DNA of 32,284 bases from Bacilli bacterium (GCA_024408305.1 JAKSVD010000002.1:1-32284), one strand, 5' to 3'; numbered from the stretch's first letter, positions 761 through 16,735 are shown. Program-made: numbers and translations. The notes: generated from the sequence alone by a model not told the origin.

Positions 761-815
761 AAAATAAACAAAAGCACCGGATTCCAACCTCTCTTCCGCA
801 GGTGCAGTGCATTAG
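761..815 (-). terminator. Intrinsic terminator acting as the expression platform of riboswitch copy 1
   Basis: Minus strand reads GCACC-UG-CGGA-(13-nt loop)-UCCG-GUGC followed by UUUUGUUUAUUUU. It lies between the aptamer (905..978) and ATG 747. Confidence 0.55.
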
Positions 816-904
816 AGCAATTAGAGTGTCCCGTCCAAGACTCCGGCTCCCTAGTAATTAAAACGCTGCCTATCAAACAACGTTCTACACGGAACCATTG
901 TCAT

Positions 905-978
905 CGGCAGCTGGCTGTCTAAGATCAATAGACCCTTTAGCTTTGCGTCACCAGATTACTCTGGGTTTGCTTTTGAAC
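905..978 (-). promoter_or_regulatory. c-di-GMP-I (GEMM-I) riboswitch aptamer, copy 1
   Basis: Minus strand: GUUCAAAAGCAAACCCAGA-GUAA-UCUGGUGACGCAAAGCUAAAGGGUCUA-UUGAUCU-UAGACAGCCAGCUGCCG. GEMM-I hallmarks are present: GCAAA, a GNRA-capped first hairpin, GACGCAAAGC, a GGGUC second hairpin and AGCC.GCUGCC. It is one of four alignable copies with compensatory stem changes. Confidence 0.88.
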
Positions 979-984
979 ACGAAT

Positions 985-1013
985 AGTATAAACCTGGTTA
1001 CCACTATATACAA
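985..1013 (-). promoter_or_regulatory. Sigma-70/SigA-type promoter driving riboswitch copy 1
   Basis: Minus strand TTGTAT-17 nt-TATACT. The -10 ends about 10 nt upstream of the AAAAGCAAA aptamer start, the same geometry as the other three copies. Confidence 0.5.
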
Positions 1014-1037
1014 CATATTTTAATATGTGTATCACTA

Positions 1038-1068
1038 TAAAATAAAAGAGGGTCATTTACGACCCTCT
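1038..1068 (-). terminator. Rho-independent terminator of the 1084..2019 gene
   Basis: Minus strand AGAGGGUC-GUAAAU-GACCCUCU (8-bp GC-rich stem) followed by UUUUAUUUU, 16 nt after the stop codon. Confidence 0.8.
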
Positions 1069-1083
1069 CAAATGCGAACAGAA

Positions 1084-2019
1084 TTAGTTGTTTGACCAAG
1101 TAACTGCGTAGAATGATGCAGACAATGTTAATGGATCGAAATCAGCTTCTGTGTTCGAAGCGTTGCTCTGAATACAATTCTTATCAGATCCTTCAAACCA
1201 TGCAACAAAGTGAACTGTTGTGGTTTCATCTGCCTTAAGGCCGGAAGCAAGATGGTACTTGCTGCCTGTAGCACTTGATTTTGTGTCGCTTGATGTATAT
1301 ACAACATTTGCAGCTGCATCGATGAAATCGTCTGCATCATAATTAGCAACAGCAGGTGCTGTTTCACCCATTTTTACGTATTTAGTTGGGATGTTTTCGT
1401 TAGCAGTTGATGCCTGAGGTGCCCAAATTACAGTTTCATCGTCTGAGACCATAGCAAGTCTGAATGCCTTACCGATTTCTGTAGTACCAGATAATTTAGA
1501 TTTTGTGCCAGTTGGATCAAAGAATAACTCATATTCACCAAATGCATCGGAATCGATTGTGAAATCAATGTCCCAAACTGCTGCAAAGCAAACATTATTC
1601 TTTGTTGTTCCATCATTGAAATAACCAGCTGGTGTTTTTGACTCAACCTTGTCTGTAACGTTGATATAGCCATCAACAGCTTTATTAGTTACTGAAGCAA
1701 TGTGATACTCATCATTCATTGCGTCATAGCTGCAATCTCTTAAATATTCGAGATTGAATGTTTTTCCGGAGATGTAGTCACCTGTTTCTCCTTCAGCAGG
1801 AGCGTTGCCATCAGCTGTAACTGTATTAGGAGTTTTGATTCCAGAGATGCCCCTGATATTTGCGACAAGATCACCAGCTGTGTTGATAGCAGCGATATTT
1901 CCAACGCTAATAGCAGCTGACTGTGAAGCTGTGAACCATGCGACGGTTCCTGTAACTGATGCGATTCCTGAAACAGCTAAGAGAGCGATTGCAGGAAGAA
2001 TGATTCTTGATTTTTTCAT
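1084..2019 (-). CDS. Secreted TasA/camelysin-like protein with an AWF-type signal peptide (311 aa from ATG 2019)
   Basis: The track ORF 1084..2094 is trimmed to Met26 (MKKSRIILPAIALLAVSGIASVTGTVAWFTASQ...), which has GAAAGGA 9 nt upstream. 'GTVAWFTAS' resembles the TasA 'GGGTWAAFND' signal junction. The C-terminal 'VHFVAWFEGSDKNCIQ' resembles the D-x-G-N-x-x-Q end of TasA/camelysin-type proteins, as I recall it. Confidence 0.8.
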   Translation of the reverse strand: MKKSRIILPAIALLAVSGIASVTGTVAWFTASQSAAISVGNIAAINTAGDLVANIRGISGIKTPNTVTADGNAPAEGETGDYISGKTFNLEYLRDCSYDAMNDEYHIASVTNKAVDGYINVTDKVESKTPAGYFNDGTTKNNVCFAAVWDIDFTIDSDAFGEYELFFDPTGTKSKLSGTTEIGKAFRLAMVSDDETVIWAPQASTANENIPTKYVKMGETAPAVANYDADDFIDAAANVVYTSSDTKSSATGSKYHLASGLKADETTTVHFVAWFEGSDKNCIQSNASNTEADFDPLTLSASFYAVTWSNN

Positions 2020-2178
2020 TTTGAATTGTCCTTTCGGGTAGTAATTATTGGGGCTACCCATAGTTATTGTGATTGCTAAGTTGTCCACTTGCACCTGTTC
2101 AACTTAAGCTCTGATAGTGAAGGATCTTTCGCTAAAACTTGTTGGACTCAAGGTCTAGAAAAAGGTTCTACAGCAAAA

Positions 2179-2206
2179 ACTATACACATAATACGCGCAT
2201 ATGCAA
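2179..2206 (-). promoter_or_regulatory. Putative promoter of the 1084..2019 gene
   Basis: Minus strand TTGCAT-16 nt-TATAGT. It leaves a ~150-nt leader with no GEMM-I core. Confidence 0.45.
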
Positions 2207-2248
2207 GCATTATTTTGCGCGCACTCGCGTTTTATATAAAGAAATAAT

Positions 2249-2276
2249 AAAAGAAAAGGAAGGTTTGTGCCTTCCT
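2249..2276 (-). terminator. Rho-independent terminator of the 2283..2648 gene
   Basis: Minus strand GGAAGG-CACAAA-CCUUCC followed by UUUUCUUUU, immediately after the stop. Confidence 0.8.
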
Positions 2277-2282
2277 GTAGTT

Positions 2283-2648
2283 TTATTCGCCCTTCTGTAG
2301 GTCCTTCATTAACTCTGCTCTGAGTTTAGCTTTTTCTTCCTCAGAGAGATCGTTTAATGCTACCTTCTTCTTCTCATTTGCTTTCTTTGCGTATGTGATG
2401 AGCACCCATATGTTGACGATGAATAATGCTAACAACGGGAGTACAACTACAAGCAAGAATACATTTGGGTTCTGTTGGAAGTATCCAATGAATCCTGGAG
2501 CATATCCATTAACAATAATCTCATATTCATCTTTTGGCATGGTCACAATCATGACGATTGAAACAACCAAAAAGAACAGTGTCAACGCAATGTCAGCACC
2601 GAACAGTGTTCCATAAAGTACTTTTTTAGATGTTGGTAGATCTTTCAT
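2283..2648 (-). CDS. Small membrane protein (2-3 TM helices, charged coiled C-tail), function unknown
   Basis: 121-aa ORF with ATG preceded by GAGG. It has hydrophobic stretches (LFGADIALTLFFLVVSIVMIV, FLLVVVLPLLALFIVNIWVLI) and a Lys/Glu-rich tail. Confidence 0.7.
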   Translation of the reverse strand: MKDLPTSKKVLYGTLFGADIALTLFFLVVSIVMIVTMPKDEYEIIVNGYAPGFIGYFQQNPNVFLLVVVLPLLALFIVNIWVLITYAKKANEKKKVALNDLSEEEKAKLRAELMKDLQKGE

Positions 2649-2690
2649 TGGGGCCTCTATCTTTGTGTAGTTTACATTCTATACCTAAAA

Positions 2691-2723
2691 TTTCAAATAA
2701 AATCGTCAAAAATGATGTTTGAC
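2691..2723 (-). terminator. Weak candidate terminator after the giant gene L1
   Basis: Minus strand GUCAAA-CAUCAUU-UUUGAC followed by GAUUUUAUUUGAAA. The stem is AT-rich and only 6 bp. Confidence 0.35.
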
Positions 2724-2752
2724 AAAACAATGTTTGCCCAATTTTATCTTTT

Positions 2753-5700
2753 TTAAATCAAAAACGTGTCACCCTGAGCAATACTAGCTAACTCACCGTT
2801 AATATAAATGTGGAAATTGCCGTCAACACTAAGCACCTTTACATTAACAGATTCGCTCTCGCCAGAAATGTTCCAGACTAAGTTATATCCATCGAGCGAC
2901 TTGTAATATGCTCCTTCGAAAGAATCATCATCTACAACCGTCACCTCAAAATATAGCGATACAGTAGTAGGGTCAAGATACTTGTATCTTAATGATAGAG
3001 CACTATTCCCGCCAGAAAGTGTAACGAAATCTGTAGAATTAGCCCTGGTCTCAAAATATATACGTTCATCATTTGTTATCGATGAACTGATGTCATTTCC
3101 ATTCTCGTCATTCCTAGTCATTTCTATAGTATCAACGCCCTGCGTTCGTATAATATGCGTCTCTGCCATTGTAGTAGTGTTGACCGCAATAATATGCGTT
3201 CTGCGTATTAAAGTTTCTCTTGCGACCACGTCGTCATCTAGGAGGTTAGAATTTTTGTCGCGCAAAGAGGTGGATTCGTCGATATAACCTATAGAAATAC
3301 CAGTTGTAGATGAAAAGTTTGCGGTAGCATTCGTACCGTCTATTTGCAACAATACTGTGCCGCTAAAGGATGGAGCAACAGCAATTGCGATAATAGAATT
3401 TGTGTCATCCACTTCTCCACCTGGCGCAGCCAAAGCCACACCGTATGGATACACATATGTCTTACTTACGGTCTTGATCTCCTCATGAATAATGGAGTAA
3501 TTAATCTTTTGGGCGTTTGCGGCAATATCAAGATAGAGCAAATATGCTCCAGTGCCACCATCAACAGATCCCAAAGCATATTCACCAAGATTCATAGGAA
3601 TTTCAAAATAATACATGTATTTTGTTGTGGATAAATCGCTTCCTTGATTTTTAATCCATGACGTCTTAAAAATTGAGGAATAAGTACTTGGGATTGAAGA
3701 CGGAGTGTTCAGTGATGCCCCTATTGTTTTATCCGCATTAATTACATATCCGATGGAATAAGAGTCGTCAGAATATTGGTAAATGTACGAGTGCCTAGGA
3801 TCATTGTCCCCAAAAATTTCTTTAATTTCCTTGATCTCAACTATATTTTCACTCGAATCCCTCACTATATCATGCAAAGAGAAAAAACTGTTATTGCCAG
3901 AAAAATATGTCCCTGCAAAAAAGTTTATGAACCCCTTCTCTTTCAAATTGAAATCAATGCAGTCAGCCGGTAACTGATAATTACGATGAGGTTCTTCCTT
4001 GTTAACTCTTGCATATTGCGCTGTGACAAGATTGTTCATACTAATGCTTGAATTCATAAAATGCAATCCGTATACATAGGTACCGTCGGTAGACATTACC
4101 TTTCTTAAGGCTTCTTTTGAATCATTATACTTTTCAAAGGTGTTATTGGATGCGATTACATGCAAGCCCCCATCATCAACAGTATAAATAGAACGTATAT
4201 TGCCGTTTCGATATGATGTAGTGTTAATATTATCCGATATCTCATATCGTGAAACACGTATGTCCCCCGTTCTCAAAGGAAACATAAATCTATCCGGAAC
4301 GTCATGGCTACCAGCTACTACGTACCCTGTATTCGCTTCATGGACTTCAAAATTATTATCAGAAACTGTTCTCAAAGGAAAATATGTGACATTATTGCCT
4401 GTATAATCGACATAATCGTCACTAAATGACACACCCATGGAACGATTAAAACTTTGTAGAGATAGCGTAGCCTCGTTCGCCCTTGGTGTCCAGTTATTGT
4501 TTGTGCCGCTTAAATAAACAGTTTTGCCTTCAACTAAAGTTGTCACATTATTTGTTCCAATACTCCACGTATTCATCGGCATAGTTGAAACTACAAAACT
4601 GTAATTAGTAGTATTAGATCCAGTGTTTCTAACGTTTAAAAAATAGGTGATATTGCCAGCGACGGTATAAAGATGATTTTTACCATCAAGAGCCCAATAT
4701 GTGTTAGCCGTGGTGCTTGATGTAACGCCGTTTCGAGCGTTGTTAATATTAAGATAATAATTCCTGTTGTTGTTAGTTATATAAAAGCGATACGCAGTGG
4801 TCTGATCAGTAGATTGTGTTGTCCTCGTAACATGAGTTCCGCCCGATAAATAAATATACTGCGGATTTTGAATTGTGTTGCTCTCGGAAGCGTTGGCAAA
4901 GACGAAAGAGCCATATTTTTCGTTGTAGTTGGTTTTATTATTAAGATATGTCCAAATGTAATTGTTAGTCGAATTAGTGCTAGTAATAGTCGTACCAGAA
5001 ACATAATCGTTTCGAGCATACACATAATTAGTAGTTCTTGTTGCGGAACTAGAACGAATTGAATTTAGACGACTGTACATAGACTTCATATTAATCGAGC
5101 CGCCCCAAGCACTTTCACTTCCCTCGTTGCCACTATAAACATCGTCCTCGGTAGAAAGAGTTGGAGTATATATTGTAGTGTCAGACACGTTTAAAACGTT
5201 ACGATAAGGAGCGGTGCAATAACCAACTAACGTATAGTCACTTAAATTTGTGGTGACAGAACTAAGAGGTGCCGTGCCAGATGCGACCGATATAGTAGAT
5301 CCCGAAACTCCAATGCCAGATAAAGAGCCATTAACATAACCAGCGGCAACACCCAAAAGAGATTGATTCAGTTGCGTCTCTACAAAACAATCCTTTAAAT
5401 AAACATTAGATACAGAAGGGGCGAATGATGAATACGTTCCAGCTCCATCATAATCCCCAATAACGCCAAACATACCGACAATATTTACGCCTGACAGTCC
5501 CTCAACGCTTAATGGTTTTTTCTCGATAAAACCAGGACCAAGTTTATTAGTAATTCTAAGATTTTTGATTGTGGATCCATTTCCATTAAAAACACCAATG
5601 AATGGATTGTTGGTTGTCCCAATAGGCGGAAGAACAAGGCCTGACATGTCGATTTCACAATCTTCTTCAAGTTCAAAATAATACTGTTTTATCTGTTGTG

Positions 5701-5953
5701 TCGTTTCATCTTTTTTGTTGAATTCCCCAAGATACTGAAGCCACGCAAGATTATATAAATGAATCGGAGAGTTTATAACATAAGGTTTTTCATCACTACC
5801 ATCTCCGCTATGGAAATAAGATGCTGCAGTATAGCCATAACCGTCGTCAAAATCCACTTCGCCTGAACTTAAAAACCACGCAAACGAGGCGGAAATGAAT
5901 GTCAAAAATGACGAAATCACAACTGAGGTTTTAAGAAATAGTTTTCTATCCAT
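2753..5953 (-). CDS. Giant secreted/surface protein L1 (1066 aa): AWF-type signal peptide, GLUG/beta-helix-like N-module, Asn/Thr-rich body; putative adhesin
   Basis: Long ORF with GAGGGG 7 nt upstream of the ATG. The start overlaps the stop of the small gene by 8 nt (AAATGGATAG). N-terminus is MDRKLFLKTSVVISSFLTFISASFAWFLSS. 'YFHSGDGSDEKPYVINSPIHLYNL...LPPIG...PFIGVFNGNGSTIKNLRI' is paralogous to L2 and to the 21763..23853 lipoprotein. Confidence 0.9.
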   Translation of the reverse strand: MDRKLFLKTSVVISSFLTFISASFAWFLSSGEVDFDDGYGYTAASYFHSGDGSDEKPYVINSPIHLYNLAWLQYLGEFNKKDETTQQIKQYYFELEEDCEIDMSGLVLPPIGTTNNPFIGVFNGNGSTIKNLRITNKLGPGFIEKKPLSVEGLSGVNIVGMFGVIGDYDGAGTYSSFAPSVSNVYLKDCFVETQLNQSLLGVAAGYVNGSLSGIGVSGSTISVASGTAPLSSVTTNLSDYTLVGYCTAPYRNVLNVSDTTIYTPTLSTEDDVYSGNEGSESAWGGSINMKSMYSRLNSIRSSSATRTTNYVYARNDYVSGTTITSTNSTNNYIWTYLNNKTNYNEKYGSFVFANASESNTIQNPQYIYLSGGTHVTRTTQSTDQTTAYRFYITNNNRNYYLNINNARNGVTSSTTANTYWALDGKNHLYTVAGNITYFLNVRNTGSNTTNYSFVVSTMPMNTWSIGTNNVTTLVEGKTVYLSGTNNNWTPRANEATLSLQSFNRSMGVSFSDDYVDYTGNNVTYFPLRTVSDNNFEVHEANTGYVVAGSHDVPDRFMFPLRTGDIRVSRYEISDNINTTSYRNGNIRSIYTVDDGGLHVIASNNTFEKYNDSKEALRKVMSTDGTYVYGLHFMNSSISMNNLVTAQYARVNKEEPHRNYQLPADCIDFNLKEKGFINFFAGTYFSGNNSFFSLHDIVRDSSENIVEIKEIKEIFGDNDPRHSYIYQYSDDSYSIGYVINADKTIGASLNTPSSIPSTYSSIFKTSWIKNQGSDLSTTKYMYYFEIPMNLGEYALGSVDGGTGAYLLYLDIAANAQKINYSIIHEEIKTVSKTYVYPYGVALAAPGGEVDDTNSIIAIAVAPSFSGTVLLQIDGTNATANFSSTTGISIGYIDESTSLRDKNSNLLDDDVVARETLIRRTHIIAVNTTTMAETHIIRTQGVDTIEMTRNDENGNDISSSITNDERIYFETRANSTDFVTLSGGNSALSLRYKYLDPTTVSLYFEVTVVDDDSFEGAYYKSLDGYNLVWNISGESESVNVKVLSVDGNFHIYINGELASIAQGDTFLI

Positions 5954-6719
5954 TTGTCAACCCCTCAATCTTGTTTATATAAAAACAGAAATCAGCTGAA
6001 TATGTAATGTATGAATGACCATCAACAACGGTCATATCATCCCCAACACCAGAAGTAATATCGTTGCCTAAATTTGCAGAATAAATTGTCTCTATCGAAA
6101 TCTCGTCATAATCGATGACAACATATACCCTGTCAGTGTTTGAAAACTGACATACCCTCGCTTTTTTATCGTCCACTAAATCCGTATAATCAGCATTTAT
6201 AAAATTAGTCTTTCTTGATGAATAGGTAGTTAAATCAACGGAATAAAATGTTTCATTGATTGTTAGCTCCGTATTATTTAAACCATAAAAACAGACAATA
6301 CTTGAAAGTGAATTTCCGGTTGCATGCAAGGAATAAATAGGATTGTCGTTTTCGTCTCTTTCAACAATACCTAAATATGAGTCTGAATACGTTTCAGCAG
6401 TAACCGAAATACTCATCTCGCTTTCCAAAACAATCTCCATCAGCAGTTGGTAACCTGAATTGATGATTGAATAGTAACCTAGTGTCTTACTGCTAATTGG
6501 GGTTTTGTCAAAATAATACTGTGTTTTCGTACCACTCATCTTTGAGCTGTATGGGTAGAAATTGACTTCCTTTACAACCTGATCCTTGATAACGGCAATG
6601 TTGCCAGCATCACCATCAGTAATCGGCCTAGTAGTAAACCAAGCAAGCGTAACTAAAGATAAGCCAACAACATTGGCCATCGTGAGTGAGATTAATGATA
6701 CTAGCTTGCCTGTTTTCAT
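5946..6719 (-). CDS. Small secreted protein S1 (257 aa) with an AWF-type signal peptide; candidate fibre/anchor subunit
   Basis: The track ORF 5946..6743 begins at a TTG that lies inside the riboswitch aptamer. I trimmed it to ATG 6719 (MKTGKLVSLISLTMANVVGLSLVTLAWFTTRPITDGDAGNIAVI...). It is paralogous to S2 (9966..10754). Confidence 0.85.
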   Translation of the reverse strand: MKTGKLVSLISLTMANVVGLSLVTLAWFTTRPITDGDAGNIAVIKDQVVKEVNFYPYSSKMSGTKTQYYFDKTPISSKTLGYYSIINSGYQLLMEIVLESEMSISVTAETYSDSYLGIVERDENDNPIYSLHATGNSLSSIVCFYGLNNTELTINETFYSVDLTTYSSRKTNFINADYTDLVDDKKARVCQFSNTDRVYVVIDYDEISIETIYSANLGNDITSGVGDDMTVVDGHSYITYSADFCFYINKIEGLTNG

Positions 6720-6730
6720 TCTTACTGATT

Positions 6731-6801
6731 CGGCAGCTGGCAATCCTTCTAGGACCCTAATAGCTTTGCGTCACTAGATTACTCTAGTTTTGCTTTTAAC
6801 G
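6731..6801 (-). promoter_or_regulatory. c-di-GMP-I (GEMM-I) riboswitch aptamer, copy 2
   Basis: Minus strand: GUUAAAAGCAAAACUAGA-GUAA-UCUAGUGACGCAAAGCUAUUAGGGUCCU-AGA-AGGAUUGCCAGCUGCCG. The first stem is CUAGA/UCUAG here versus CCAGA/UCUGG in copies 1 and 3, a compensatory change. The aptamer 3' end lies 11 nt from ATG 6719. Confidence 0.88.
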
Positions 6802-6806
6802 TGAAT

Positions 6807-6835
6807 AATGTAGCGTATGTGTGCGTAAAAGGCAA
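6807..6835 (-). promoter_or_regulatory. Promoter driving riboswitch copy 2
   Basis: Minus strand TTGCCT-17 nt-TACATT, about 9 nt upstream of AAAAGCAAA. Confidence 0.5.
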
Positions 6836-6900
6836 GAAAAACAAAAATACTGAAAATCGTTCTAATAACTGAAAATTAGATATCTTTTTTGTAATTTTGT

Positions 6901-9966: not shown

Positions 9967-10754
9967 TAGTTTGCCTCCCCCGCAAATTCAAAACGCACAA
10001 TATCGCAGTCAAAGGAAATTGCTGTACCTTCTAAATTATCTGCAGTAATTTGTCCGACATCTGAATTGTCAAAATAATAGTCAACTAAAGTTTCATCATA
10101 AAAATATTCAATGTAGAGAACGGTGATTTTATCATCTGCCGTTTCATCTATATCGAGATTTCTCAAATGAATTGTTTTATCGATCGCTTTGGTTCCGACT
10201 CCATCAGACACAGTCACATAGCTAAATGAAGTATCAATAGTGTCGAAGATATCAAATGCAGAATCATAAATTGTCGATGCTGAAGTTTCATCTAATGCAC
10301 CGGCAATAGAGTCGTGTTTCAGGAAGTATTTAAAACCAATGATATTGGACATGTTGTTACACACGTGATCATTAGAATCGGTAAAGTCTCCATTTGAAGG
10401 AATGTCAACATTGAAGGTGGTATCAGAAGATGTGTCACCCTTGGATATAATTTCCATTCTTAAAATCTTGTTATTGTGAACATTTCTATCCTTAATAAAA
10501 GTATCGTATTGAGGAAGCGCAAAACGATCACCGGTCTTTTCTTTATCAACTGCAATTCTTCCCGAACGGTTATCTTCATCGTATTCGTAAAGTTCAAAAT
10601 CAACGTCCAGTGGGTCGTCTGATATCGCAGTAATCTGGCCCATTGAATTATCCGCTCTTTGATTTGCAGTAAACCATGCGAATGTAAGCATGCCTAAACA
10701 AACGACATTCATCGCTAGTAAACTGGACAAGGCTGCTACAACACTCTTTTTCAT
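9966..10754 (-). CDS. Small secreted protein S2 (262 aa) with an AWF-type signal peptide; paralog of S1
   Basis: MKKSVVAALSSLLAMNVVCLGMLTFAWFTANQRADNSMGQITAI... The ATG lies 13 nt downstream of aptamer copy 3. The C-terminal strand 'ITVLYIEYFYDE' corresponds to S1 'RVYVVIDYDE'. Confidence 0.9.
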   Translation of the reverse strand: MKKSVVAALSSLLAMNVVCLGMLTFAWFTANQRADNSMGQITAISDDPLDVDFELYEYDEDNRSGRIAVDKEKTGDRFALPQYDTFIKDRNVHNNKILRMEIISKGDTSSDTTFNVDIPSNGDFTDSNDHVCNNMSNIIGFKYFLKHDSIAGALDETSASTIYDSAFDIFDTIDTSFSYVTVSDGVGTKAIDKTIHLRNLDIDETADDKITVLYIEYFYDETLVDYYFDNSDVGQITADNLEGTAISFDCDIVRFEFAGEAN

Positions 10755-10767
10755 CTTAAGTAATTAC

Positions 10768-10838
10768 CGGCAGCTGGCTATCCAATTTGGACCCTTTTAG
10801 CTTTGCGTCACCAGATTGCTCTGGCTTTGCTTTTTCAC
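10768..10838 (-). promoter_or_regulatory. c-di-GMP-I (GEMM-I) riboswitch aptamer, copy 3
   Basis: Minus strand: GUGAAAAAGCAAAGCCAGA-GCAA-UCUGGUGACGCAAAGCUAAAAGGGUCCA-AAU-UGGAUAGCCAGCUGCCGG. Confidence 0.88.
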
Positions 10839-10842
10839 GCGT

Positions 10843-10871
10843 AGTATATACACGTACATGTGCTATATCAA
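10843..10871 (-). promoter_or_regulatory. Promoter driving riboswitch copy 3
   Basis: Minus strand TTGATA-17 nt-TATACT, 7 nt upstream of AAAAAGCAAA. Confidence 0.5.
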
Positions 10872-10897
10872 GAAAAAAGAAACCGGCCCCTTTCTTT
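10871..10897 (-). terminator. Weak candidate terminator after the GGDEF/EAL operon
   Basis: Minus strand AAGAAA-GGGGCCGG-UUUCUU followed by UUUUCU. The stem is almost all A-U, so this is low confidence. It abuts the -35 of promoter 3. Confidence 0.3.
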
Positions 10898-10984
10898 TAG
10901 AAACGTCCAAAATTATCTTTAATATGCAAAATCTCCACAAATTCGACATATATCAAATAAAAACGAGGCTTCTTAACCTCGTAA

Positions 10985-13429
10985 TTATTTTTTTACAAAT
11001 GGTGTTCCAGGCATCGGTTGAGCCGGTCTTCTGATCAATTTTAAGCACTCGTCCTGAGGGGCAGGCTTGGAATAAATATAGCCCTGAACGTACTGAATTC
11101 CACATATCTTTAAGGTGTCCGCAACAAGCTTTGAATCCACCCTTTCGAAGATGACTCTCTTGCCTAAATCACGGCAAATATCCACTAAATGTCTTAAGAG
11201 CTTTCTAGATTTTTCATCAAGTCCATTTTCGGTTACGAAATAAATGCCATCCATCTTAACAGTATCAAAAGCAACACGTCTTAAGATATCCAAAGATGAA
11301 GGACCCTTGCCAAAGTCATCTAGAGCCACTTTTGCGCCGAGTTTGTGGATATTATCGACTGCTTCTAAAACAGCCTTCTCTGAGCTTAAAAACGCTGCTT
11401 CTGAGAGTTCGAACTCTATTAATGATGGTTCAATTTCATTCTCTTCGAGAATCTTCTTATATTCATCAATCCAATCGGATTTCAAAAGGTGCCTTGATGA
11501 AACGTTAACGGAAATTGGGAGCGGTCTAATTCCACTTCTCTTTTGGTCTACGAGAACGTTGATTGCATTCTTGAATACAAGGATATCAACGTCATTGATA
11601 AGCCCACTCTTTTCAAGCATTGGAATTGTATCAACTGGGGACAATATACCCTTGGTTGGATCGTTCCATCTAAATAGGCCTTCTAAGCCGACCCAGGTAT
11701 TGTTGATGAGGTCTTTCTTTGCCTGATAAACGACTTGGTAATGTCCGTCGAATAACGCCTTCTTGGCATTCTGCTCGAATGCGGATTCATTTAACTCATG
11801 GAGCATCATCTCATCCTTATATTGGACAATGGTGTCGGTTAAATATGTCTTATCTATATGTTGTTGCGCGATATGTGCGCGGGAGATAGCAGCCTGGAAG
11901 TCCGTGATTTCCTTGCCTGGATAATAGACTCCAACTATAACCTCTGCTTTTAGGTCATAATGGACTGAAATATATTGTTCGATTGAGATTTGAATGGATT
12001 TAACTCGACGAACGATTTCTTCATAGCTATCTTCGTGCATTAAAGCGACGAATCTATCGCCATAGAATCTAACCACTACTTCTGAATCATCAACCATTCC
12101 GGCAAGGATAGTCTTATATAATCCAAGGATGAGCATATCGGATTTTTCTTTTCCGATAGTCTCAAGGATGTATTTGTATCTTACGACATTGAATTCGAGA
12201 ACAGCGACGTTACTTCTTCCCTCAACAATCTTTGGTCCATCTATCAAGAATCTCTCGTAGTTGATGGATCCTGTCCACTGATCGATATATTCAGCGTTGA
12301 GGAGCAACACTTTGCGGTGTCCAGACAAAGCGCATGCAAGTGCGAACAAGATGCCGGAAACGAAAAGCAATGCGGTTGTTATAACCATCGTTATGAATAT
12401 TTCGGTGGATGTTGTTGATAACGACGGATTCAAGATAAAGAAACGAGATAGAGCGAAGACCGAGAATGCTAAAAGCGTTGCGGCTCCAAGGGCTGCAAGG
12501 ATTCCCCATTTTGCGCGCTTTGCAGCGATTTCGTCTTTATATAAGCGAGGTTTTGCAATCTTTTTGCGTTCTTCTTCAACTGAAACTCCACCACTATTGG
12601 TGAATTTAGCGACGAGTTTTCCGTCTAAATATGCTTCTTTCTTTGTTTTGCCTTTTGCTAAACGAAGTGACTTATCCGCTCTTTCAAGGAGCAAGGAGAA
12701 TTCCGCTCCTGAATAGGTCATCATAGAAATGCCACAACAGCAGGAAATAACAATATTTTTGTGTCCTGCCTTGACGTTTAACTGCGTTGCAAGAGTCTTT
12801 TTAGCGTATTCGACTAAATCGAGCTCTGTGACGTCATCAATGAAGATAACGAATTCATCTCCACCGAATCTTCCCAAGATTGCATCAGGGGCTATTTCAC
12901 GCAATTTATTGGCAAATCCCCTTAAACATTCATCGCCGATTCTATGTCCGAAGTCATCATTGATCTTTTTGAAGTTGTTGACATCGATTAAAAGGAATCC
13001 ACATTTAGAGAATGGGTCATGCTTTTTGATACGATTGTTAACCGTTCTGATAAAGTGTGATCTAGCAGTTAAGCCAGTTAATGAGTCAACAGAATGGATA
13101 CCGGTGCCCAACGCACGGGAATCGAGTTCAGTAACGATGATTCTCATGATATCTGGGAATTGAGGCATCCAGATAAATGTGAGAATAAGAGCGCCGTTCT
13201 TATCTGTATATGGATACATCGCTACATGGTTCTCTTTAGCGTTTACGAATGACTGGATGACGTGAAATGAGTAATTCTCGTCTAAAGAAGAGAATGGTTC
13301 ACCCGTCATATAGCGGGTAAAGAACGTTTCAAAAGACATCGTGTTATTGCCTCTTATTGAGGATGACACGACGGTCTTTGAGCGGACGTCTATTTCCACT
13401 CGAAGAATTGAATCGCCTTCTTTTGCCAT
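10985..13429 (-). CDS. Bifunctional-type c-di-GMP enzyme (814 aa): N-domain, GGDEF (intact), 2 TM helices, degenerate GGDEF, EAL
   Basis: AAGGAG lies upstream of the ATG. The first GGDEF domain reads 'LIDVNNFKKINDDFGHRIGDECL...RFGGDEFVIF' (GGDEF codons at 12851..12865). Two hydrophobic helices follow (WGILAALGAATLLAFSVFAL, IFITMVITTALLFVSGILFALA). The second GGDEF-like domain has 'RFYGDRFVAL'. EAL-domain motifs are EGLFR (11669..11683), NVS, ELSE, DDFGKG, KMD and QGY. Confidence 0.9.
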   Translation of the reverse strand: MAKEGDSILRVEIDVRSKTVVSSSIRGNNTMSFETFFTRYMTGEPFSSLDENYSFHVIQSFVNAKENHVAMYPYTDKNGALILTFIWMPQFPDIMRIIVTELDSRALGTGIHSVDSLTGLTARSHFIRTVNNRIKKHDPFSKCGFLLIDVNNFKKINDDFGHRIGDECLRGFANKLREIAPDAILGRFGGDEFVIFIDDVTELDLVEYAKKTLATQLNVKAGHKNIVISCCCGISMMTYSGAEFSLLLERADKSLRLAKGKTKKEAYLDGKLVAKFTNSGGVSVEEERKKIAKPRLYKDEIAAKRAKWGILAALGAATLLAFSVFALSRFFILNPSLSTTSTEIFITMVITTALLFVSGILFALACALSGHRKVLLLNAEYIDQWTGSINYERFLIDGPKIVEGRSNVAVLEFNVVRYKYILETIGKEKSDMLILGLYKTILAGMVDDSEVVVRFYGDRFVALMHEDSYEEIVRRVKSIQISIEQYISVHYDLKAEVIVGVYYPGKEITDFQAAISRAHIAQQHIDKTYLTDTIVQYKDEMMLHELNESAFEQNAKKALFDGHYQVVYQAKKDLINNTWVGLEGLFRWNDPTKGILSPVDTIPMLEKSGLINDVDILVFKNAINVLVDQKRSGIRPLPISVNVSSRHLLKSDWIDEYKKILEENEIEPSLIEFELSEAAFLSSEKAVLEAVDNIHKLGAKVALDDFGKGPSSLDILRRVAFDTVKMDGIYFVTENGLDEKSRKLLRHLVDICRDLGKRVIFERVDSKLVADTLKICGIQYVQGYIYSKPAPQDECLKLIRRPAQPMPGTPFVKK

Positions 13430-13455
13430 GTATTTTCTTCTCCTTAACGACCAAA

Positions 13456-13477
13456 ACCCCTACCAAAAGATAAGGGT
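13456..13477 (-). terminator. Possible intra-operon hairpin/attenuator between the two GGDEF/EAL genes
   Basis: Minus strand ACCCUUA-UCUUUUGG-UAGGGGU followed by only UUUGG. It may be an RNA-processing or stability element rather than a terminator. Confidence 0.3.
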
Positions 13478-13487
13478 TCTGTTTGGA

Positions 13488-16400
13488 TTATTTTAAGATT
13501 GCCTGCTTTGATGACGCTGTCTTAAGAAGAGACAAGAATTCATCAATGACAAGTGGTTTGAAGAAGTACCAACCTTCAAAGTTGTTGATGCCTTCTTCGT
13601 CGAATACGACGTTGACCTGTTCGCGTCTTTCAATACCAACAAGTGTGACCTTGAAGTTGAATGTCTTTGCAAGAGCAATGAGTGATTTGACTTCGTTGAG
13701 TCTATTTGGGTTGCTATCGATTTCCATGACAAGGGTTCTAGCAAGCTTAACTTCAGTGAATCCGAGCTTAGCAAGCTGTTCGATTGAAATGTCCTTACCT
13801 GTGTAGTTATCGCAGACGAGGCTGATGTTGAGGTCTCTGATCTTGCGTGATGCTTCTCTAATAACTTCGACATTTGCGGCGATATCAGCTTCATTAAGCT
13901 CGAAGTTGATGAATCCCTTAGCGAAGTTGTATTCGAGAATTGCAGCCTGCATATCATTCAAGAACTGGTCATTCTGGAAGTAGATAGAGTCAACGTTGAG
14001 GGAGATTCTATCAAGGAAGCCGGATCTGAAGATTGTAGCGCCGTAAGTCTTATAGAGGTTACCGATCTGCTCGATCATGATGTTTGTGAAGCGACCCATT
14101 GATGAGTGCTTTGATGCGATTGGAATGAATTCGCCTGCATCGAAGAATGAATTGGTGAGTTCATCGTTAAGTCTAAGCAAGACTTCACCACCATTGATAA
14201 CGCCAGAAGCCTTTGAGACGATTGGCTGGATACGGATATCGAAGTTCTTGTTTTCGAAGGCCTTAGCAAGGAGAGAATAAATATATGCTTCTCTATATGC
14301 TGGTCTAACGATGTTAGCGTCGATGAGGTGTAACTGGTTGTCGCCTCTTGTGTTATTTGAATTGAAGTAGACTTCGACGTGTCTTAAGAAGTCGAATGAT
14401 GACGCGAATGTCATTGGATATGAGAAGACACGGTATGACTTCTCGATCTTGAATCCCTGATATTCGTCATTGAATTTATCTTTAAGAGCCTTTTCGACTT
14501 TTTCGATGCTTCTGAAGATATCGGTTCTTGTGATTTCATTTAAGAGGATTGCAATTGTTGATGCGTTATATGAGAAGACCTCATCATGTGTAACGCCTGT
14601 AGAAGCAATGACATCGCCTAATTCTCTTAAGAACTGGTTAGTGACTGGTTCGCCTAAGACGCTGACCATGTTGCGGAAATTAGCGAGGTTCAAGAGAACG
14701 AGGTTACCCTTGAGGTTGTAATTCCACTTATCTGCCATTCTCATAGCAAGTGAATATGGGGTTGCAAGTTTTGTTTCGGAGTCATAACGCTCTCTTGCAA
14801 GGTTTCTTCTATCGGTTGGCTCTAAGAAGAGTGTTGCATCAACCTTGTTTTCTCTGTTTGAGAGAATGGTGTGATATGCATAGTTCTTGTTATCGATAAC
14901 GCATCTCTTCTTCTTGCCGTGGCGGATTGGGCAGTCAGCGCATGGAGCATCTAAACCATAGATTGCCTTATAGCACTTCTCTCCATCTTTGCCCTTTGTT
15001 GCTGAGCATAAGCCACGTGAGTGTGATAAGAGTGTGTATGTATTCTTGTTGATGGTATACATCTGATATGCACTGTAGAGGAGCAATGAATCGAGCTGAG
15101 CGGCTGATCCTTCGATTGTGCCTCTTGAGTGTAATTCCTTTAAGGATGATGCGAATAAGTTAGAGAAGACGACAAGGGATTCTCTTGAATATGCATCAAG
15201 GACTAATTTCTTTGTGAAGTTAACGAAGATCAATGCGGCATAGACCTGTCCATTTGAATAGACGAGTGACATATGGCCTGAAACGATTCCATAGATGTCT
15301 AAGTATTTGCCTAAGTTGGATGTTATGTTCTCTCTATTGAAGAATGTGAGTGATCCATCCTTATCAGCGACTTTAGCGAGTTCTTCGATGATTGCTGCTC
15401 CATCATTTCTCAAAACGATGTGCTTGCCTTCGATTGTGCAGTGATCAGCGATCTGTGAGACCTCACCTGTTGATGAATTCTTTGCTAAGACTGCAACGCC
15501 TTCGAATCCAAGGAAGTCTGAGATTGATGTTGCACAAGCGATGACTTCTTCTCTATATGCTTCAACATTACCCTTCTTGGTGAATGCTGTGTTCATTCTT
15601 TCGATGATTTCGCCGACTGCATTGATTCTCTGTGCCTCTGTTACCAATGCATCCTTATCAAGGCTTCTCTCTGGGAGATAGACGTTGATGTCCTGGCCTC
15701 TTCTTTCAGCGTATCTTAAGTCAGAAACGATTGTTTCAACTGATGAATATGGATAGACAGACATTGAGACCTTTAATGGAAGGACGTCTGTGGACTTCTC
15801 TCCGAATCTTGCGATGGTTGATTTATGGACGACGTATCTTAATTTGCTTTCCACAATTGAGATAGAGTCGATGTTTGACATGAAAGCGATGAATGAATAG
15901 TCGGTATCCTGAGATACGACTGGTGCATTGTCAGCGAAGACTTCATTGATGACGTCAAGTAAGCGAGCCATGTCAGCGTGTGATGGGTTTGCCTCTGTTG
16001 TGTCATAAATGAATGAGACCATAGCGTTTCTAAATGACTTAGAGACATTGACCATTGCAGGGATTGAAGCGAAGAATGATTCCTTAGCAATTGTCTTGCC
16101 GCCGAACGATGGATCCTTCTCTAATCCGATTTCTGACATATCCGCAACAGCAGACATCATGACGATGGTGTTGTATTTGCCGTTGATCTTTGCGATTGCG
16201 TCATTAAGCTGGCTGAATTCTCCTCCAGGTGCGTCTACTGGATATTGCTCTAAGTTGTATTTATTCTTTGAGACCTTATCCATGTTCTCTGCAGTTCTCT
16301 CAAACAATGGCTTCACGACGCCTTGGCGGATTGTCTTGACGTAAAAATACGCTGAGCCTGCAGAAAGACCGATGAACATCAAGGCGAGGATGCCTAATAT

Positions 16401-16544
16401 AAGCGTTACGATCTTGTTACCTGTGATTCCTCCGACGATGATAAGCACAAGTAAGATGACTCCGCCGACTCCGCCGGAAATGAATTCGACGAGTCTTAGG
16501 TACTTTACCTTCTGTGAGATGTTTAATTTGCTACTTGCTTCCAT
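13488..16544 (-). CDS. Membrane-anchored multidomain protein (1018 aa) with degenerate GGDEF and partly degenerate EAL domains; candidate c-di-GMP receptor/sensor
   Basis: AGGAGGAAAA lies 7 nt upstream. Two N-terminal TM helices are present. A GGDEF-like fold reads 'LLNLANFRNMVSVLGEPVTNQFLRELGD...FSYNASTIAIL' and has no GGDEF motif. The EAL-like domain keeps EVLLR, N (LNVDS) and ELNE. It has CDNYTG for DDFGTG, KLA for KxD and EGW for QGY. A five-Cys cluster lies at 14901..15008. Confidence 0.9.
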   Translation of the reverse strand: MEASSKLNISQKVKYLRLVEFISGGVGGVILLVLIIVGGITGNKIVTLILGILALMFIGLSAGSAYFYVKTIRQGVVKPLFERTAENMDKVSKNKYNLEQYPVDAPGGEFSQLNDAIAKINGKYNTIVMMSAVADMSEIGLEKDPSFGGKTIAKESFFASIPAMVNVSKSFRNAMVSFIYDTTEANPSHADMARLLDVINEVFADNAPVVSQDTDYSFIAFMSNIDSISIVESKLRYVVHKSTIARFGEKSTDVLPLKVSMSVYPYSSVETIVSDLRYAERRGQDINVYLPERSLDKDALVTEAQRINAVGEIIERMNTAFTKKGNVEAYREEVIACATSISDFLGFEGVAVLAKNSSTGEVSQIADHCTIEGKHIVLRNDGAAIIEELAKVADKDGSLTFFNRENITSNLGKYLDIYGIVSGHMSLVYSNGQVYAALIFVNFTKKLVLDAYSRESLVVFSNLFASSLKELHSRGTIEGSAAQLDSLLLYSAYQMYTINKNTYTLLSHSRGLCSATKGKDGEKCYKAIYGLDAPCADCPIRHGKKKRCVIDNKNYAYHTILSNRENKVDATLFLEPTDRRNLARERYDSETKLATPYSLAMRMADKWNYNLKGNLVLLNLANFRNMVSVLGEPVTNQFLRELGDVIASTGVTHDEVFSYNASTIAILLNEITRTDIFRSIEKVEKALKDKFNDEYQGFKIEKSYRVFSYPMTFASSFDFLRHVEVYFNSNNTRGDNQLHLIDANIVRPAYREAYIYSLLAKAFENKNFDIRIQPIVSKASGVINGGEVLLRLNDELTNSFFDAGEFIPIASKHSSMGRFTNIMIEQIGNLYKTYGATIFRSGFLDRISLNVDSIYFQNDQFLNDMQAAILEYNFAKGFINFELNEADIAANVEVIREASRKIRDLNISLVCDNYTGKDISIEQLAKLGFTEVKLARTLVMEIDSNPNRLNEVKSLIALAKTFNFKVTLVGIERREQVNVVFDEEGINNFEGWYFFKPLVIDEFLSLLKTASSKQAILK

Positions 16545-16567
16545 GAGTTTTCCTCCTGATTGTCGTT

Positions 16568-16599
16568 AATGATAAAAGCGGCACACTATTGTTGCCGCT
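16568..16599 (-). terminator. Intrinsic terminator acting as the expression platform of riboswitch copy 4
   Basis: Minus strand AGCGGCA-ACAAUAGUG-UGCCGCU followed by UUUUAUCAUU. It lies between the aptamer and the AGGAGG SD of the 1018-aa gene. Confidence 0.6.
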
Positions 16600-16629
16600 A
16601 TGATAACTGCATTACCAATTAGCGACATT

Positions 16630-16700
16630 CGGTAACTGGCTATCTATTTCTAGACCCTCTAGCTTTGCGTCCCTAGATTGCTCTAGGTTTGCTTTTGGAC
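16630..16700 (-). promoter_or_regulatory. c-di-GMP-I (GEMM-I) riboswitch aptamer, copy 4
   Basis: Minus strand: GUCCAAAAGCAAACCUAGA-GCAA-UCUAGGGACGCAAAGCUAGAGGGUCUA-GAAA-UAGAUAGCCAGUUACCG. Confidence 0.88.
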
Positions 16701-16706
16701 TTTGAT

Positions 16707-16735
16707 ATTTTACGTTGTCATACGTATGTGTGCAA
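16707..16735 (-). promoter_or_regulatory. Promoter driving riboswitch copy 4
   Basis: Minus strand TTGCAC-17 nt-TAAAAT, about 10 nt upstream of AAAAGCAAA. Confidence 0.5.

What the first reader, a model, noticed from the sequence alone, without database searches (positions are those of the whole stretch)
905..16735. Four c-di-GMP-I (GEMM-I) riboswitch aptamers, each with its own promoter, within 16 kb
The segments 905..978, 6731..6801, 10768..10838 and 16630..16700 are mutually alignable on the minus strand. All four contain AAAAGCAAA, a 5-bp hairpin capped by a GNRA loop (GUAA or GCAA), GACGCAAAGC, GGGUC opening a second short hairpin, and AGCCAG(C/U)U(G/A)CCG. This is the core I recognise from the Vibrio cholerae Vc2 / GEMM-I family. 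Both stems covary. Stem 1 is CCAGA/UCUGG in copies 1 and 3 and CUAGA/UCUAG in copies 2 and 4. Stem 2 is GUCUA/UAGAC, GUCCU/AGGAU, GUCCA/UGGAU and GUCUA/UAGAU in copies 1-4. Each copy has a TTGnnn-17-TAnnnT promoter ending 7-10 nt upstream. This density of one riboswitch class around one gene family is unusual and defines a local c-di-GMP regulon.
Basis: partly seen in the sequence, partly recalled or inferred. Interest (0 to 1): 0.8.

Follow-up and report, generated by a model that had tools for sequence, protein, structure and literature searches.

The report
Four c-di-GMP riboswitches, one locus
Four genuine copies of a well-known RNA sensor for the bacterial signal c-di-GMP sit at the start of four neighbouring operons in an uncultured gut bacterium, where they most likely switch on uncharacterised cell-surface proteins and c-di-GMP signalling genes; the sensor is a known kind, and the proteins it controls are the unknown part.

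Summary
Rfam finds exactly four matches in the window. All are c-di-GMP-I (RF01051), all on the minus strand at the stated places, at 52.8-61.8 bits against a cut-off of 35. Thirty-four further copies from related gut and rumen Bacilli MAGs support both stems by covariation. They also show a conserved sigma-70-type promoter whose -10 box ends 11-15 nt before the aptamer core, so the aptamer starts at the 5' end of the transcript.

- Every copy has A, not G, at the position equivalent to Vc2 G20. This is the GEMM-Ib / bispecific signature. c-di-GMP remains the likely ligand because one copy controls a GGDEF/EAL operon, but sequence alone does not prove it.
- The genes are not one family. Two copies control paralogous two-gene cassettes, one controls a different membrane protein, and one controls GGDEF/EAL genes.
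- The layout is shared by related MAGs, and two copies within 8 kb occur in five of their loci.

The expression platforms point to ON switches. The controlled proteins share an invariant N-terminal AWF motif and match no Pfam, NCBIfam or PDB entry.

Verdict: new members of a known riboswitch class, of moderate interest.

The parts
903..981 (-). Riboswitch copy 1, c-di-GMP-I aptamer. A20-equivalent at 971, C92-equivalent at 907.
   Evidence: Rfam RF01051, 58.5 bits. Own model R1, 82.7 bits. 93% identical over 184 nt (aptamer, promoter and leader) to the syntenic MAG locus L018, against 64-75% in the neighbouring genes.
985..1013 (-). Promoter of copy 1: TTGTAT, 17 nt, TATACT. The -10 box ends 13 nt before A20.
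   Evidence: Read from the sequence. Conserved spacing across 30 of 37 copies. An upstream terminator at 1046-1069 insulates it.
856..913 (-). Copy 1 expression platform. The aptamer 3' strand GCUGCC pairs with GGCAGC (870-865), followed by UUUU (863-860). This is a terminator-like hairpin that can form only when the aptamer is not locked.
   Evidence: MFE -19.7 kcal/mol, z -2.85. Same design as 15 of 35 copies in the lineage.
1..747 (-). Gene controlled by copy 1. Membrane-anchored protein, partial (249 aa; it runs off the window).
   Evidence: Translation. Relatives follow the same riboswitch in L016, L019, L026 and L022. No Pfam or NCBIfam match.
6729..6804 (-). Riboswitch copy 2, aptamer. 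A20-equivalent at 6794, C92-equivalent at 6733.
   Evidence: Rfam, 59.2 bits. R1, 82.5 bits.
6807..6835 (-). Promoter of copy 2: TTGCCT, 17 nt, TACATT.
   Evidence: sequence.
2283..6719 (-). Operon of copy 2: A2 (5946-6719, 257 aa), B2 (2753-5953, 1066 aa) and a 121-aa membrane protein (2283-2648). The AUG at 6719 lies 13 nt after C93, with no Shine-Dalgarno sequence. Codons 4-8 (GGCAAGCUAGUAU) are complementary to the aptamer 3' strand.
   Evidence: A terminator at 2257-2276 ends the operon. Syntenic in L018.
1084..2019 (-). A0, a 311-aa protein with the same N-terminal AWFT motif, between the copy 2 operon and copy 1. No riboswitch of its own.
10766..10841 (-). Riboswitch copy 3, aptamer. 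A20-equivalent at 10831, C92-equivalent at 10770.
   Evidence: Rfam, 52.8 bits. R1, 79.9 bits. Orthologous A genes on L006 and L007 keep the riboswitch.
10843..10871 (-). Promoter of copy 3: TTGATA, 17 nt, TATACT.
   Evidence: Promoter scan, 10 of 12 matches. An upstream terminator lies at 10963-10982.
6901..10754 (-). Operon of copy 3: A3 (9966-10754, 262 aa) and B3 (6901-9966, 1021 aa). The AUG at 10754 lies 15 nt after C93, with no Shine-Dalgarno sequence.
   Evidence: The A+B pairing is conserved in L002-L007. A3 and A2 are 24% identical; B3 and B2 are 29% identical over the N-terminal 190 aa.
16628..16703 (-). Riboswitch copy 4, aptamer. A20-equivalent at 16693; the 3' strand reads GUUACC.
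   Evidence: Rfam, 61.8 bits. R1, 88.9 bits. 93% identical to L020.
16707..16735 (-). Promoter of copy 4: TTGCAC, 17 nt, TAAAAT.
16574..16640 (-). Copy 4 expression platform.
- Aptamer 3' strand (16640-16631) pairs with AAUUGGUAAU (16620-16611).
- Antiterminator: UGUCGCU...AGCGGCA (16627-16593).
- Terminator: GCGGCA...UGCCGC plus UUUU (16598-16574).
A Shine-Dalgarno AGGAGG follows at 16557-16552.
   Evidence: The same three-hairpin logic, with different sequences, is present in L020 and L031.
10985..16544 (-). Operon of copy 4. First gene: 1018-aa membrane protein with degenerate GGDEF and EAL domains (13488-16544). Second gene: 814-aa protein with an intact GGDEF motif and intact EAL motifs (10985-13429).
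   Evidence: Pfam, NCBIfam, motif comparison. Syntenic in L020 and L031.

Best explanation
These are four functional class I cyclic-di-GMP riboswitches (GEMM-I, Rfam RF01051). Each sits at the extreme 5' end of its own sigma-70-type transcript in an uncultured gut Bacilli bacterium.

Proposed mechanism. Each aptamer folds into the two standard hairpins, P2 with a GYAA loop and P3. The ligand is held by the A at the Vc2-G20 position, by A47 and by C92. The transcript starts about 5-7 nt before that A, so there is almost no closing P1 helix. The switch instead works through the 3' strand of P3 and the C92 region (CCAGYURCC). Without ligand, that strand pairs with a complementary segment further downstream.
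- Copy 1: the pairing builds a terminator-like hairpin.
- Copy 4: it blocks an antiterminator, so a separate terminator forms.
- Copies 2 and 3: it ties up codons 4-8 next to a start codon that has no Shine-Dalgarno sequence.
With ligand bound, the strand is held in the aptamer and the genes are expressed. All four are therefore predicted to be ON switches.

Predicted output. High c-di-GMP would turn on membrane-anchored or secreted proteins of unknown family that share an invariant N-terminal AWF motif. It would also turn on a c-di-GMP module made of a degenerate GGDEF-EAL protein (candidate receptor) and an intact GGDEF-EAL enzyme, which gives feedback on the signal itself.

Status of each step.
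- Shown here: family membership, covariation, promoter conservation, conserved synteny, complementarity of the platforms.
- Inferred: the ligand (c-di-GMP rather than cGAMP), the ON direction, the surface role of the proteins.
For: Family membership: four Rfam hits well above the cut-off.

Structure: 97.1% of cells paired, 8 compensatory pairs, 0 of 500 shuffles as good.

Binding-site residues: A47 and C92 equivalents are invariant in 38 copies, and the G20 equivalent is A in all 37 full copies.

Promoters: found at a fixed distance in 30 of 37 copies, against 3.3% of random positions.

Selection: the riboswitch, promoter and leader of copy 1 are 93% identical to a MAG locus whose genes are only 64-75% identical.

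ON logic:
- In 15 of 35 copies the best complement of the aptamer 3' strand is directly followed by a U-run (background 7.1%, P = 5e-9).
- Copy 1 hairpin: -19.7 kcal/mol, z -2.85.
- The complement follows the aptamer strand: GCUGCC:GGCAGC in copy 1, GUUACC:GGUAAU in copy 4.
- The three-hairpin platform of copy 4 is kept, with different sequences, in L020 and L031.
- Copies 2 and 3, and their orthologues L006, L007 and L018, place the AUG about 9-21 nt after the 3' end of the aptamer match and carry the complement inside the first codons.

Ligand:
- The only intact GGDEF in the window has the canonical Asn...Asp guanine-specifying residues and a GGDEF motif.
- EAL domains act on c-di-GMP (established knowledge).
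- A natural A20 aptamer from Clostridium beijerinckii binds c-di-GMP at 30 nM and cGAMP at 463 nM (PMC6140456).

Precedent: the class I riboswitch Bc2 of Bacillus thuringiensis is an ON switch for an adhesin gene (PMC6366702).
Against: - A at position 20 is the signature of cGAMP-sensing GEMM-Ib RNAs, and the Vc2 G20A mutant binds both ligands about equally (53 and 120 nM). The ligand is not settled.
- Thermodynamic snapshots of the copy 4 leader favour the antiterminator whether or not the aptamer strand is free, so the ON prediction there rests on a kinetic argument.
- The complement in copy 3 is short (5-6 bp, z about 0).
- The U-tract of copy 1 is only UUUUAAUU. A second terminator-like hairpin (805-761) lies further down its leader and is not explained.
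- No experiment or transcript data were available.
Confidence: 0.72

Rival explanations
1. The aptamers sense 3',3'-cGAMP, or both cGAMP and c-di-GMP, as GEMM-Ib riboswitches do. The locus would then be a cGAMP or mixed regulon.
For: All copies have the A-A-C binding-site triplet at positions 20/47/92. This is the triplet of the Geobacter cGAMP riboswitches. Vc2 G20A binds cGAMP at 120 nM.
Against: - The operon under copy 4 encodes GGDEF/EAL proteins. Its intact GGDEF has the canonical Asp, not the Ser of Hypr GGDEF cGAMP synthases (the role of this residue is from my own knowledge of Hallberg et al. 2016).
- No CD-NTase or DncV-like gene is seen in the window.
- The tested clostridial A20 aptamer prefers c-di-GMP about 15-fold.
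Confidence: 0.15
2. Some or all of the four are OFF switches: ligand binding lowers expression, as for the class I riboswitches of C. difficile.
For: - All functional class I riboswitches of C. difficile are OFF.
- In copies 2 and 3 a folded aptamer ends only 13-15 nt before an AUG that has no Shine-Dalgarno sequence, which could hinder ribosome loading.
- The antiterminator of copy 4 is thermodynamically favoured in both states.
Against: - The terminator or sequestering strand is the aptamer's own 3' strand in most copies of the lineage. That layout gives ON logic.
- The controlled genes look like surface proteins, which c-di-GMP usually induces.
Confidence: 0.2
3. The four copies are decaying duplicates of a repeated cassette and have no regulatory function.
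For: They are repeated together with their promoters and lie next to paralogous genes.
Against: - Each copy has a positional orthologue in other species-level MAGs.
- The copy 1 aptamer with its promoter and leader is much better conserved (93%) than the flanking genes.
- Base pairs are kept through compensatory changes, and the binding-site residues are invariant.
Confidence: 0.02

Closest known systems
Vc2 / c-di-GMP-I (GEMM-I) riboswitch, Rfam RF01051
   Same: Same two-hairpin core, with a GNRA-type loop on P2, GACGCAAAGC, and the A47 and C92 equivalents. Matches the covariance model at 53-62 bits. Sits in a 5' leader.
   Different: - A instead of G at position 20.
- Very short P3, with a total length of about 76 nt.
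- The transcript starts 5-7 nt before position 20, so P1 is at most 2-3 bp.
- Switching uses the P3 3' strand rather than P1.
GEMM-Ib cGAMP riboswitches (Gs1761, Gm0970) and the bispecific Cbe 1-2 of Clostridium beijerinckii
   Same: A at position 20, so the same A-A-C ligand-contact triplet.
   Different: The host is a gut Bacilli lineage, not Geobacter. The genes controlled are surface proteins and GGDEF/EAL proteins, not exoelectrogenesis genes. The local cyclase has canonical guanine-specifying residues. The ligand preference is untested.
Bc2 riboswitch upstream of cap (collagen adhesion protein) in Bacillus thuringiensis
   Same: A class I aptamer that acts as an ON switch by transcription read-through in front of a surface adhesin gene in a Firmicute (PMC6366702).
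   Different: Here the ON behaviour is only predicted. The controlled proteins belong to no described family. Two of the four copies appear to act on translation.
TasA / CalY matrix-fibre proteins with SipW-type signal peptides
   Same: A hydrophobic N-terminal segment ends in T-x-A-(W/Y/A)-F, like TasA (GTWA|AFND). TasA is cleaved with Phe at P2' by SipW (PMC10269814). Several such proteins sit in one operon.
   Different: - No hit to any NCBIfam model, including the SipW-cognate signal model if the library carries it.
- No Pfam match.
- The profile search of PDB sequences does not find TasA.
- Foldseek to the TasA fibre 8aur gives only E 0.04 and TM 0.25.
This is a resemblance of motif only.

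Membership tests
c-di-GMP-I riboswitch (GEMM-I, RF01051) | Score at or above the family's gathering threshold with the curated covariance model | tested here: met
   52.8-61.8 bits against 35, four hits. Related clan families score lower.
c-di-GMP-I riboswitch (GEMM-I, RF01051) | P2 hairpin with a GNRA-type tetraloop and P3 hairpin, both supported by covariation | tested here: met
   97.1% of cells paired. Compensatory changes in 4 of 6 P2 pairs and 4 of 11 P3 pairs. Slid controls give 21-39%.
c-di-GMP-I riboswitch (GEMM-I, RF01051) | Ligand-contacting residues G20, A47 and C92 (Vc2 numbering) | tested here: inconclusive
   The A47 and C92 equivalents are invariant. Position 20 is A in all 37 full copies. 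A20 variants are accepted members of the Rfam family, but they can bind cGAMP as well.
c-di-GMP-I riboswitch (GEMM-I, RF01051) | Closing P1 helix formed by the 5' and 3' ends | tested here: not met
   The conserved -10 box places the start 5-7 nt before position 20. Only a G:C93 pair plus 1-2 more pairs can form in most copies. P1 is not part of the Rfam consensus structure.
c-di-GMP-I riboswitch (GEMM-I, RF01051) | Cis position in the 5' leader of a gene, followed by an expression platform | tested here: met
   All four are on the gene strand, 13-160 nt upstream of a start codon, with terminator or sequestering complements.
c-di-GMP-I riboswitch (GEMM-I, RF01051) | Binds c-di-GMP and changes structure | not testable with these tools
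   Needs in-line probing, ITC or reporter assays.
GEMM-Ib cGAMP riboswitch | A at position 20 | tested here: met
GEMM-Ib cGAMP riboswitch | A cGAMP synthase in the organism (Hypr GGDEF with Ser at the guanine-specifying Asp position, or a DncV/CD-NTase) | tested here: not met
   Tested within this window only. The one intact GGDEF domain reads INDDFGHRIGD...GGDEF, with the canonical Asn and Asp. No CD-NTase domain was found. The rest of the genome was not available.
GEMM-Ib cGAMP riboswitch | Selectivity for cGAMP over c-di-GMP | not testable with these tools
   Natural A20 aptamers range from about 1600-fold cGAMP-selective (Gm0970) to c-di-GMP-preferring (Cbe 1-2).
TasA/camelysin family with SipW-type signal peptide (for the controlled A and B proteins) | Match to the family or signal-peptide HMMs | tested here: not met
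   No Pfam or NCBIfam hit for any AWF-motif protein.
TasA/camelysin family with SipW-type signal peptide (for the controlled A and B proteins) | TasA-like fold | tested here: not met
   The AlphaFold model has pLDDT 70.9. The best Foldseek hits against PDB are SdrD at E 0.016 and the TasA fibre at E 0.04 with TM 0.25. None is significant.

The most novel reading that the evidence does not exclude
The A20, P1-less form of GEMM-I is the dedicated regulator of an undescribed surface system in uncultured gut and rumen Bacilli. The system consists of operons of two or more proteins: a 220-320 aa 'A' protein and a 650-1400 aa 'B' protein. Both carry an invariant N-terminal AWF motif that may be a processing or assembly signal. 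High c-di-GMP would switch them on together with a LapD-like degenerate GGDEF-EAL receptor. If so, this locus is the entry point to a new kind of c-di-GMP-controlled adhesin or fibre in a lineage with no cultured model.
Probability: 0.35. Interest if true: 0.6.

Novelty: new member of a known kind. Interest (0 to 1): 0.4.

Why it matters
The riboswitch class itself is well known, so the annotation is routine. Its value lies in what it points to.
- It marks, with high confidence, a set of unannotated proteins as outputs of c-di-GMP signalling in uncultured gut Bacilli. These organisms appear in public records as Erysipelotrichaceae, Anaeroplasmataceae, Acholeplasmatales or 'Bacilli bacterium' MAGs.
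- It gives a rare example of a c-di-GMP riboswitch that controls c-di-GMP signalling genes.
- It supplies a compact natural aptamer of about 76 nt, with A at position 20 and almost no P1. This could be useful for studying ligand discrimination and for biosensor design.

Tried and rejected
- **TasA/SipW idea for the AWF proteins.** The motif resembles TasA and CalY, but no HMM, PDB-sequence or fold match supports it. It is kept only as a lead.
- **Domain searches of the controlled proteins.** Pfam, NCBIfam and PDB sequence searches found nothing, in the window and in 48 proteins from related loci, apart from GGDEF/EAL and unrelated neighbours.
- **Second RNA element in the long leader of copy 1 (748-902).** Rfam at E up to 1 finds only the aptamer, and the distal 114 nt fold no better than shuffles (z -0.05).
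- **Thermodynamic snapshots of the copy 4 leader.** They do not separate the two states, so the ON call rests on the order of folding.
- **Source organism.** The assembly accession GCA_024500515.1 appears in no held paper. Placement therefore rests on syntenic MAG loci.
- **Kellenberger et al. 2015.** The paper could not be read.
- **GC-rich stretch at 24040-25100.** No homologue was found in phages, plasmids or 80 kdgK loci from metagenomes.
Full report
**Observation.** A gathering-threshold Rfam scan of the whole window returns exactly four matches. All are RF01051 (c-di-GMP-I), all on the minus strand: 16628-16703 (61.8 bits), 6729-6804 (59.2), 903-981 (58.5) and 10766-10841 (52.8). The cut-off is 35 bits.

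**Wider sample.** The pattern AGCAAANCYAGAGYAATCTRGNGACGCAAAGCTA was searched in one genome per species and found in 27 contigs. Nearly all are MAGs of uncultured gut or rumen Bacilli. Their records call them Erysipelotrichaceae, Anaeroplasmataceae, Acholeplasmatales, Candidatus Enteromonas, or 'Bacilli/Bacillales bacterium'. A covariance model built from these copies found 38 copies in the window and the fetched loci. Four are in the window. Five loci of 8 kb or less hold a second copy that the pattern had not required.

On this alignment, 97.1% of cells form standard pairs, against 21-39% when the 3' partners are slid. Eight of 19 pairs show compensatory changes, and no shuffle out of 500 reaches the observed covariation score. 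The alignment was fitted to the model, which favours pairing, but the size of the margin and the slid controls make the structure secure.

**Binding site.** The columns equivalent to A47 and C92 of Vc2 are invariant. The column equivalent to G20 is A in all 37 full-length copies, including the five that were not selected by the pattern. I mapped the positions from the Rfam structure line: the residue lies just 5' of the G-C/C-G mini-helix whose 3' strand is followed by A47. I checked this against the published contact lists for Gs1761 (A11 A12 U13 A14 ... A41 A42 ... G74 C75 C76) and the statement that A14 corresponds to G20.

A at this position is the hallmark of cGAMP-sensing GEMM-Ib RNAs. 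The Vc2 G20A mutant binds c-di-GMP at 53 nM and cGAMP at 120 nM. A natural A20 aptamer from Clostridium beijerinckii binds them at 30 nM and 463 nM (PMC6140456). The ligand therefore cannot be read from the sequence.

I still favour c-di-GMP, for two reasons. Copy 4 controls two GGDEF/EAL proteins. The one intact GGDEF domain (814-aa protein...INDDFGHRIGD...RFGGDEF...) keeps the Asn and Asp that specify guanine. That Hypr cGAMP synthases carry Ser at that Asp is from my own knowledge.

**Promoters.**
- Copy 1: TTGTAT-17-TATACT (1013-985).
- Copy 2: TTGCCT-17-TACATT (6835-6807).
- Copy 3: TTGATA-17-TATACT (10871-10843).
- Copy 4: TTGCAC-17-TAAAAT (16735-16707).

 Across the lineage, 30 of 37 copies have a -35-like hexamer, 16-18 nt and TAnnnT, with the -10 box ending 11-15 nt (mostly 12-13) before the core A. 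This occurs at 3.3% of random positions in the same DNA. Terminators lie just upstream of the promoters of copies 1 and 3 (1046-1069 and 10963-10982).

A start about 7 nt after the -10 box leaves only 5-7 nt before the core A. The closing P1 helix of Vc2 is thus reduced to a G:C93 pair plus one or two more. The aptamer is effectively the 5' end of the mRNA.

**Genes controlled.**
- Copy 4 precedes a 1018-aa membrane protein (13488-16544) with a weak GGDEF match. Its EAL domain keeps ExLxR, N and ExxE but has lost the second Asp of DDFG, the Asp of KxD and the Gln. It is a candidate receptor rather than an enzyme (inference). An 814-aa protein with an intact GGDEF motif and intact EAL motifs follows (10985-13429).
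- Copy 3 precedes A3 (262 aa) and B3 (1021 aa).
- Copy 2 precedes A2 (257 aa), B2 (1066 aa) and a 121-aa membrane protein.
- Copy 1 precedes a different membrane-anchored protein that runs off the window.

A3 and A2 are 24% identical. B3 and B2 are 29% identical over their first 190 residues. 'One gene family' is therefore only partly right.

None of the A or B proteins matches Pfam, NCBIfam or any PDB sequence. An AlphaFold model of A3 (pLDDT 70.9) shows a long N-terminal helix and a beta-rich domain. It has no significant Foldseek match: SdrD at E 0.016, the TasA fibre at E 0.04 with TM 0.25. The N-terminal module of B2 resembles that of the GLUG-motif protein at 21763-23853 (E 2e-6).

The A family is small. 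The word-indexed search of 5.8 billion proteins gave 10 hits for A3 alone and 57 for the profile. A full HMM scan of 1.84 billion representatives gave 305 at E up to 0.001. Some of these are proteins of more than 1000 aa with the A domain at their N terminus.

**Association across the lineage.** In nearly every related locus, the first gene after the riboswitch encodes a 220-320 aa protein with AW(F/Y/I) at residues 25-38, at the end of a hydrophobic N-terminal segment. It is usually followed by a 650-1400 aa protein with the same motif. A-W-F-T is invariant in the A alignment. The motif resembles the SipW-type cleavage region of TasA, where cleavage leaves Phe at P2' (PMC10269814). No HMM or fold evidence supports membership, so this remains a lead.

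**Conserved layout.** The four-riboswitch arrangement is conserved.
- L018 (Bacilli bacterium Horse_feces351) has riboswitch, 256 aa, 1094 aa, 122 aa, 305 aa, riboswitch.
- L031 (Horse_feces352) has riboswitch, 1018 aa, 808 aa, riboswitch, A gene. L020 (UBA1744) has the first part of the same layout, riboswitch and 1019-aa protein, before its contig ends.

Genes are 64-75% identical to the window at the DNA level. The copy 1 riboswitch with its promoter and leader is 93% identical over 184 nt. This rules out decaying repeats.

**Mechanism.** In 15 of 35 copies, the best complement to the aptamer's 3' strand within 75 nt downstream is followed at once by at least 5 U in 6. The background is 7.1%, and the binomial P is 5e-9. 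The terminator's 5' half is then the aptamer's own 3' strand, so ligand binding should prevent termination. That is ON logic.

In the window:
- **Copy 1.** GCUGCC pairs with GGCAGC (870-865), followed by UUUU (863-860). The hairpin has -19.7 kcal/mol and z -2.85. When the aptamer strand is withheld, a weaker hairpin forms that buries the U-tract.
- **Copy 4.** The strand has changed to GUUACC, and the complement has changed with it to GGUAAU. A separate antiterminator (UGUCGCU...AGCGGCA) and a terminator (GCGGCA...UGCCGC-UUUU, 16598-16574) follow, then AGGAGG and the AUG. L020 and L031 keep the same three-hairpin design with different sequences. Thermodynamic snapshots do not separate the two states, so the ON call depends on the order of folding.
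- **Copies 2 and 3.** There is no Shine-Dalgarno sequence. The AUG lies 13 and 15 nt after C93, and the complement lies in codons 4-8 (GGCAAGCUAGUAU in copy 2, GCAGC in copy 3). The orthologues L006, L007 and L018 are built the same way. This suggests control of translation, again ON, but the evidence for copy 3 is thin.

**Comparison with what is known.**
- C. difficile 630 has 12 class I and 4 class II c-di-GMP riboswitches. Its functional class I copies are all OFF.
- Bc2 of B. thuringiensis is a class I ON switch for an adhesin gene.
- G. sulfurreducens has 17 GEMM-I copies.

Against this background, four copies in 16 kb is dense, but the same layout recurs in related MAGs. The ON prediction has a precedent. 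Control of a GGDEF/EAL operon is the less common feature.

**Verdict.** The caveats concern the ligand (A at position 20), the 'one gene family' wording and the claim of unusual density. Interest is moderate. The RNA is ordinary, but it labels an undescribed family of AWF-motif proteins as c-di-GMP outputs in an uncultured gut lineage.

Noticed in passing
window 24040-25100: About 1 kb without a credible ORF. GC is 0.50-0.56 in a genome of 0.37-0.42, with a strong A>T skew on the + strand. It lies between a small membrane-protein gene (25122-25550) and the GLUG-motif gene. The + strand folds better than all 20 shuffles (z -1.97); the minus strand does not (z -0.42). No Rfam family matches at E up to 1, and there is no match in phages, plasmids or 80 kdgK loci from metagenomes. 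It may be a large structured RNA or a decayed foreign segment.
   Followed up: partly
window 13488-16544: The first gene under riboswitch copy 4 has a degenerate GGDEF domain. Its EAL domain lacks several catalytic residues but keeps ExLxR, and the protein has N-terminal membrane helices. This layout recalls c-di-GMP receptors such as LapD (NCBIfam LapD model E 7.6e-17, among many EAL models).
   Followed up: partly
window 6717-6732 and 10752-10769; L006 150-161; L007 64-75; L008 and L034 leaders: Genes for the AWF-motif 'A' proteins lack a Shine-Dalgarno sequence. The AUG follows the aptamer, or the terminator U-tract, within about 10-15 nt. The GGDEF/EAL gene in the same window has a strong AGGAGG.
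   Followed up: partly
window 761-805: A second terminator-like hairpin (GCACC...GGUGC followed by UUUUGUUUAUUUU) lies in the long leader of copy 1, just before the start codon. It is not accounted for by the riboswitch model.
   Followed up: partly
window 16779-18462: A HipA_C-domain kinase-like gene (17557-18462) overlaps a 261-aa gene of unknown family (16779-17564). This looks like a toxin-antitoxin-style pair, directly upstream of the copy 4 promoter.
   Followed up: no
window 19491-23853: Two large probable surface proteins, one with a GLUG motif (696 aa) and one with a Big_2 domain (768 aa), have overlapping reading frames and no riboswitch. The GLUG protein shares its N-terminal module with B2.
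   Followed up: no
window 25691-30642: A hexuronate-utilisation gene row on the minus strand: short-chain dehydrogenase, UxuA, UxaC, KDPG aldolase and a PfkB-family kinase. The closest metagenome relatives of the kinase are only 67% identical, so the organism is poorly sampled.
   Followed up: no
L021 1-2285: In one related MAG, the riboswitch-controlled AWF gene is followed by BREX defence genes, with BrxC-domain hits here and a BrxB hit in the earlier scan.
   Followed up: no
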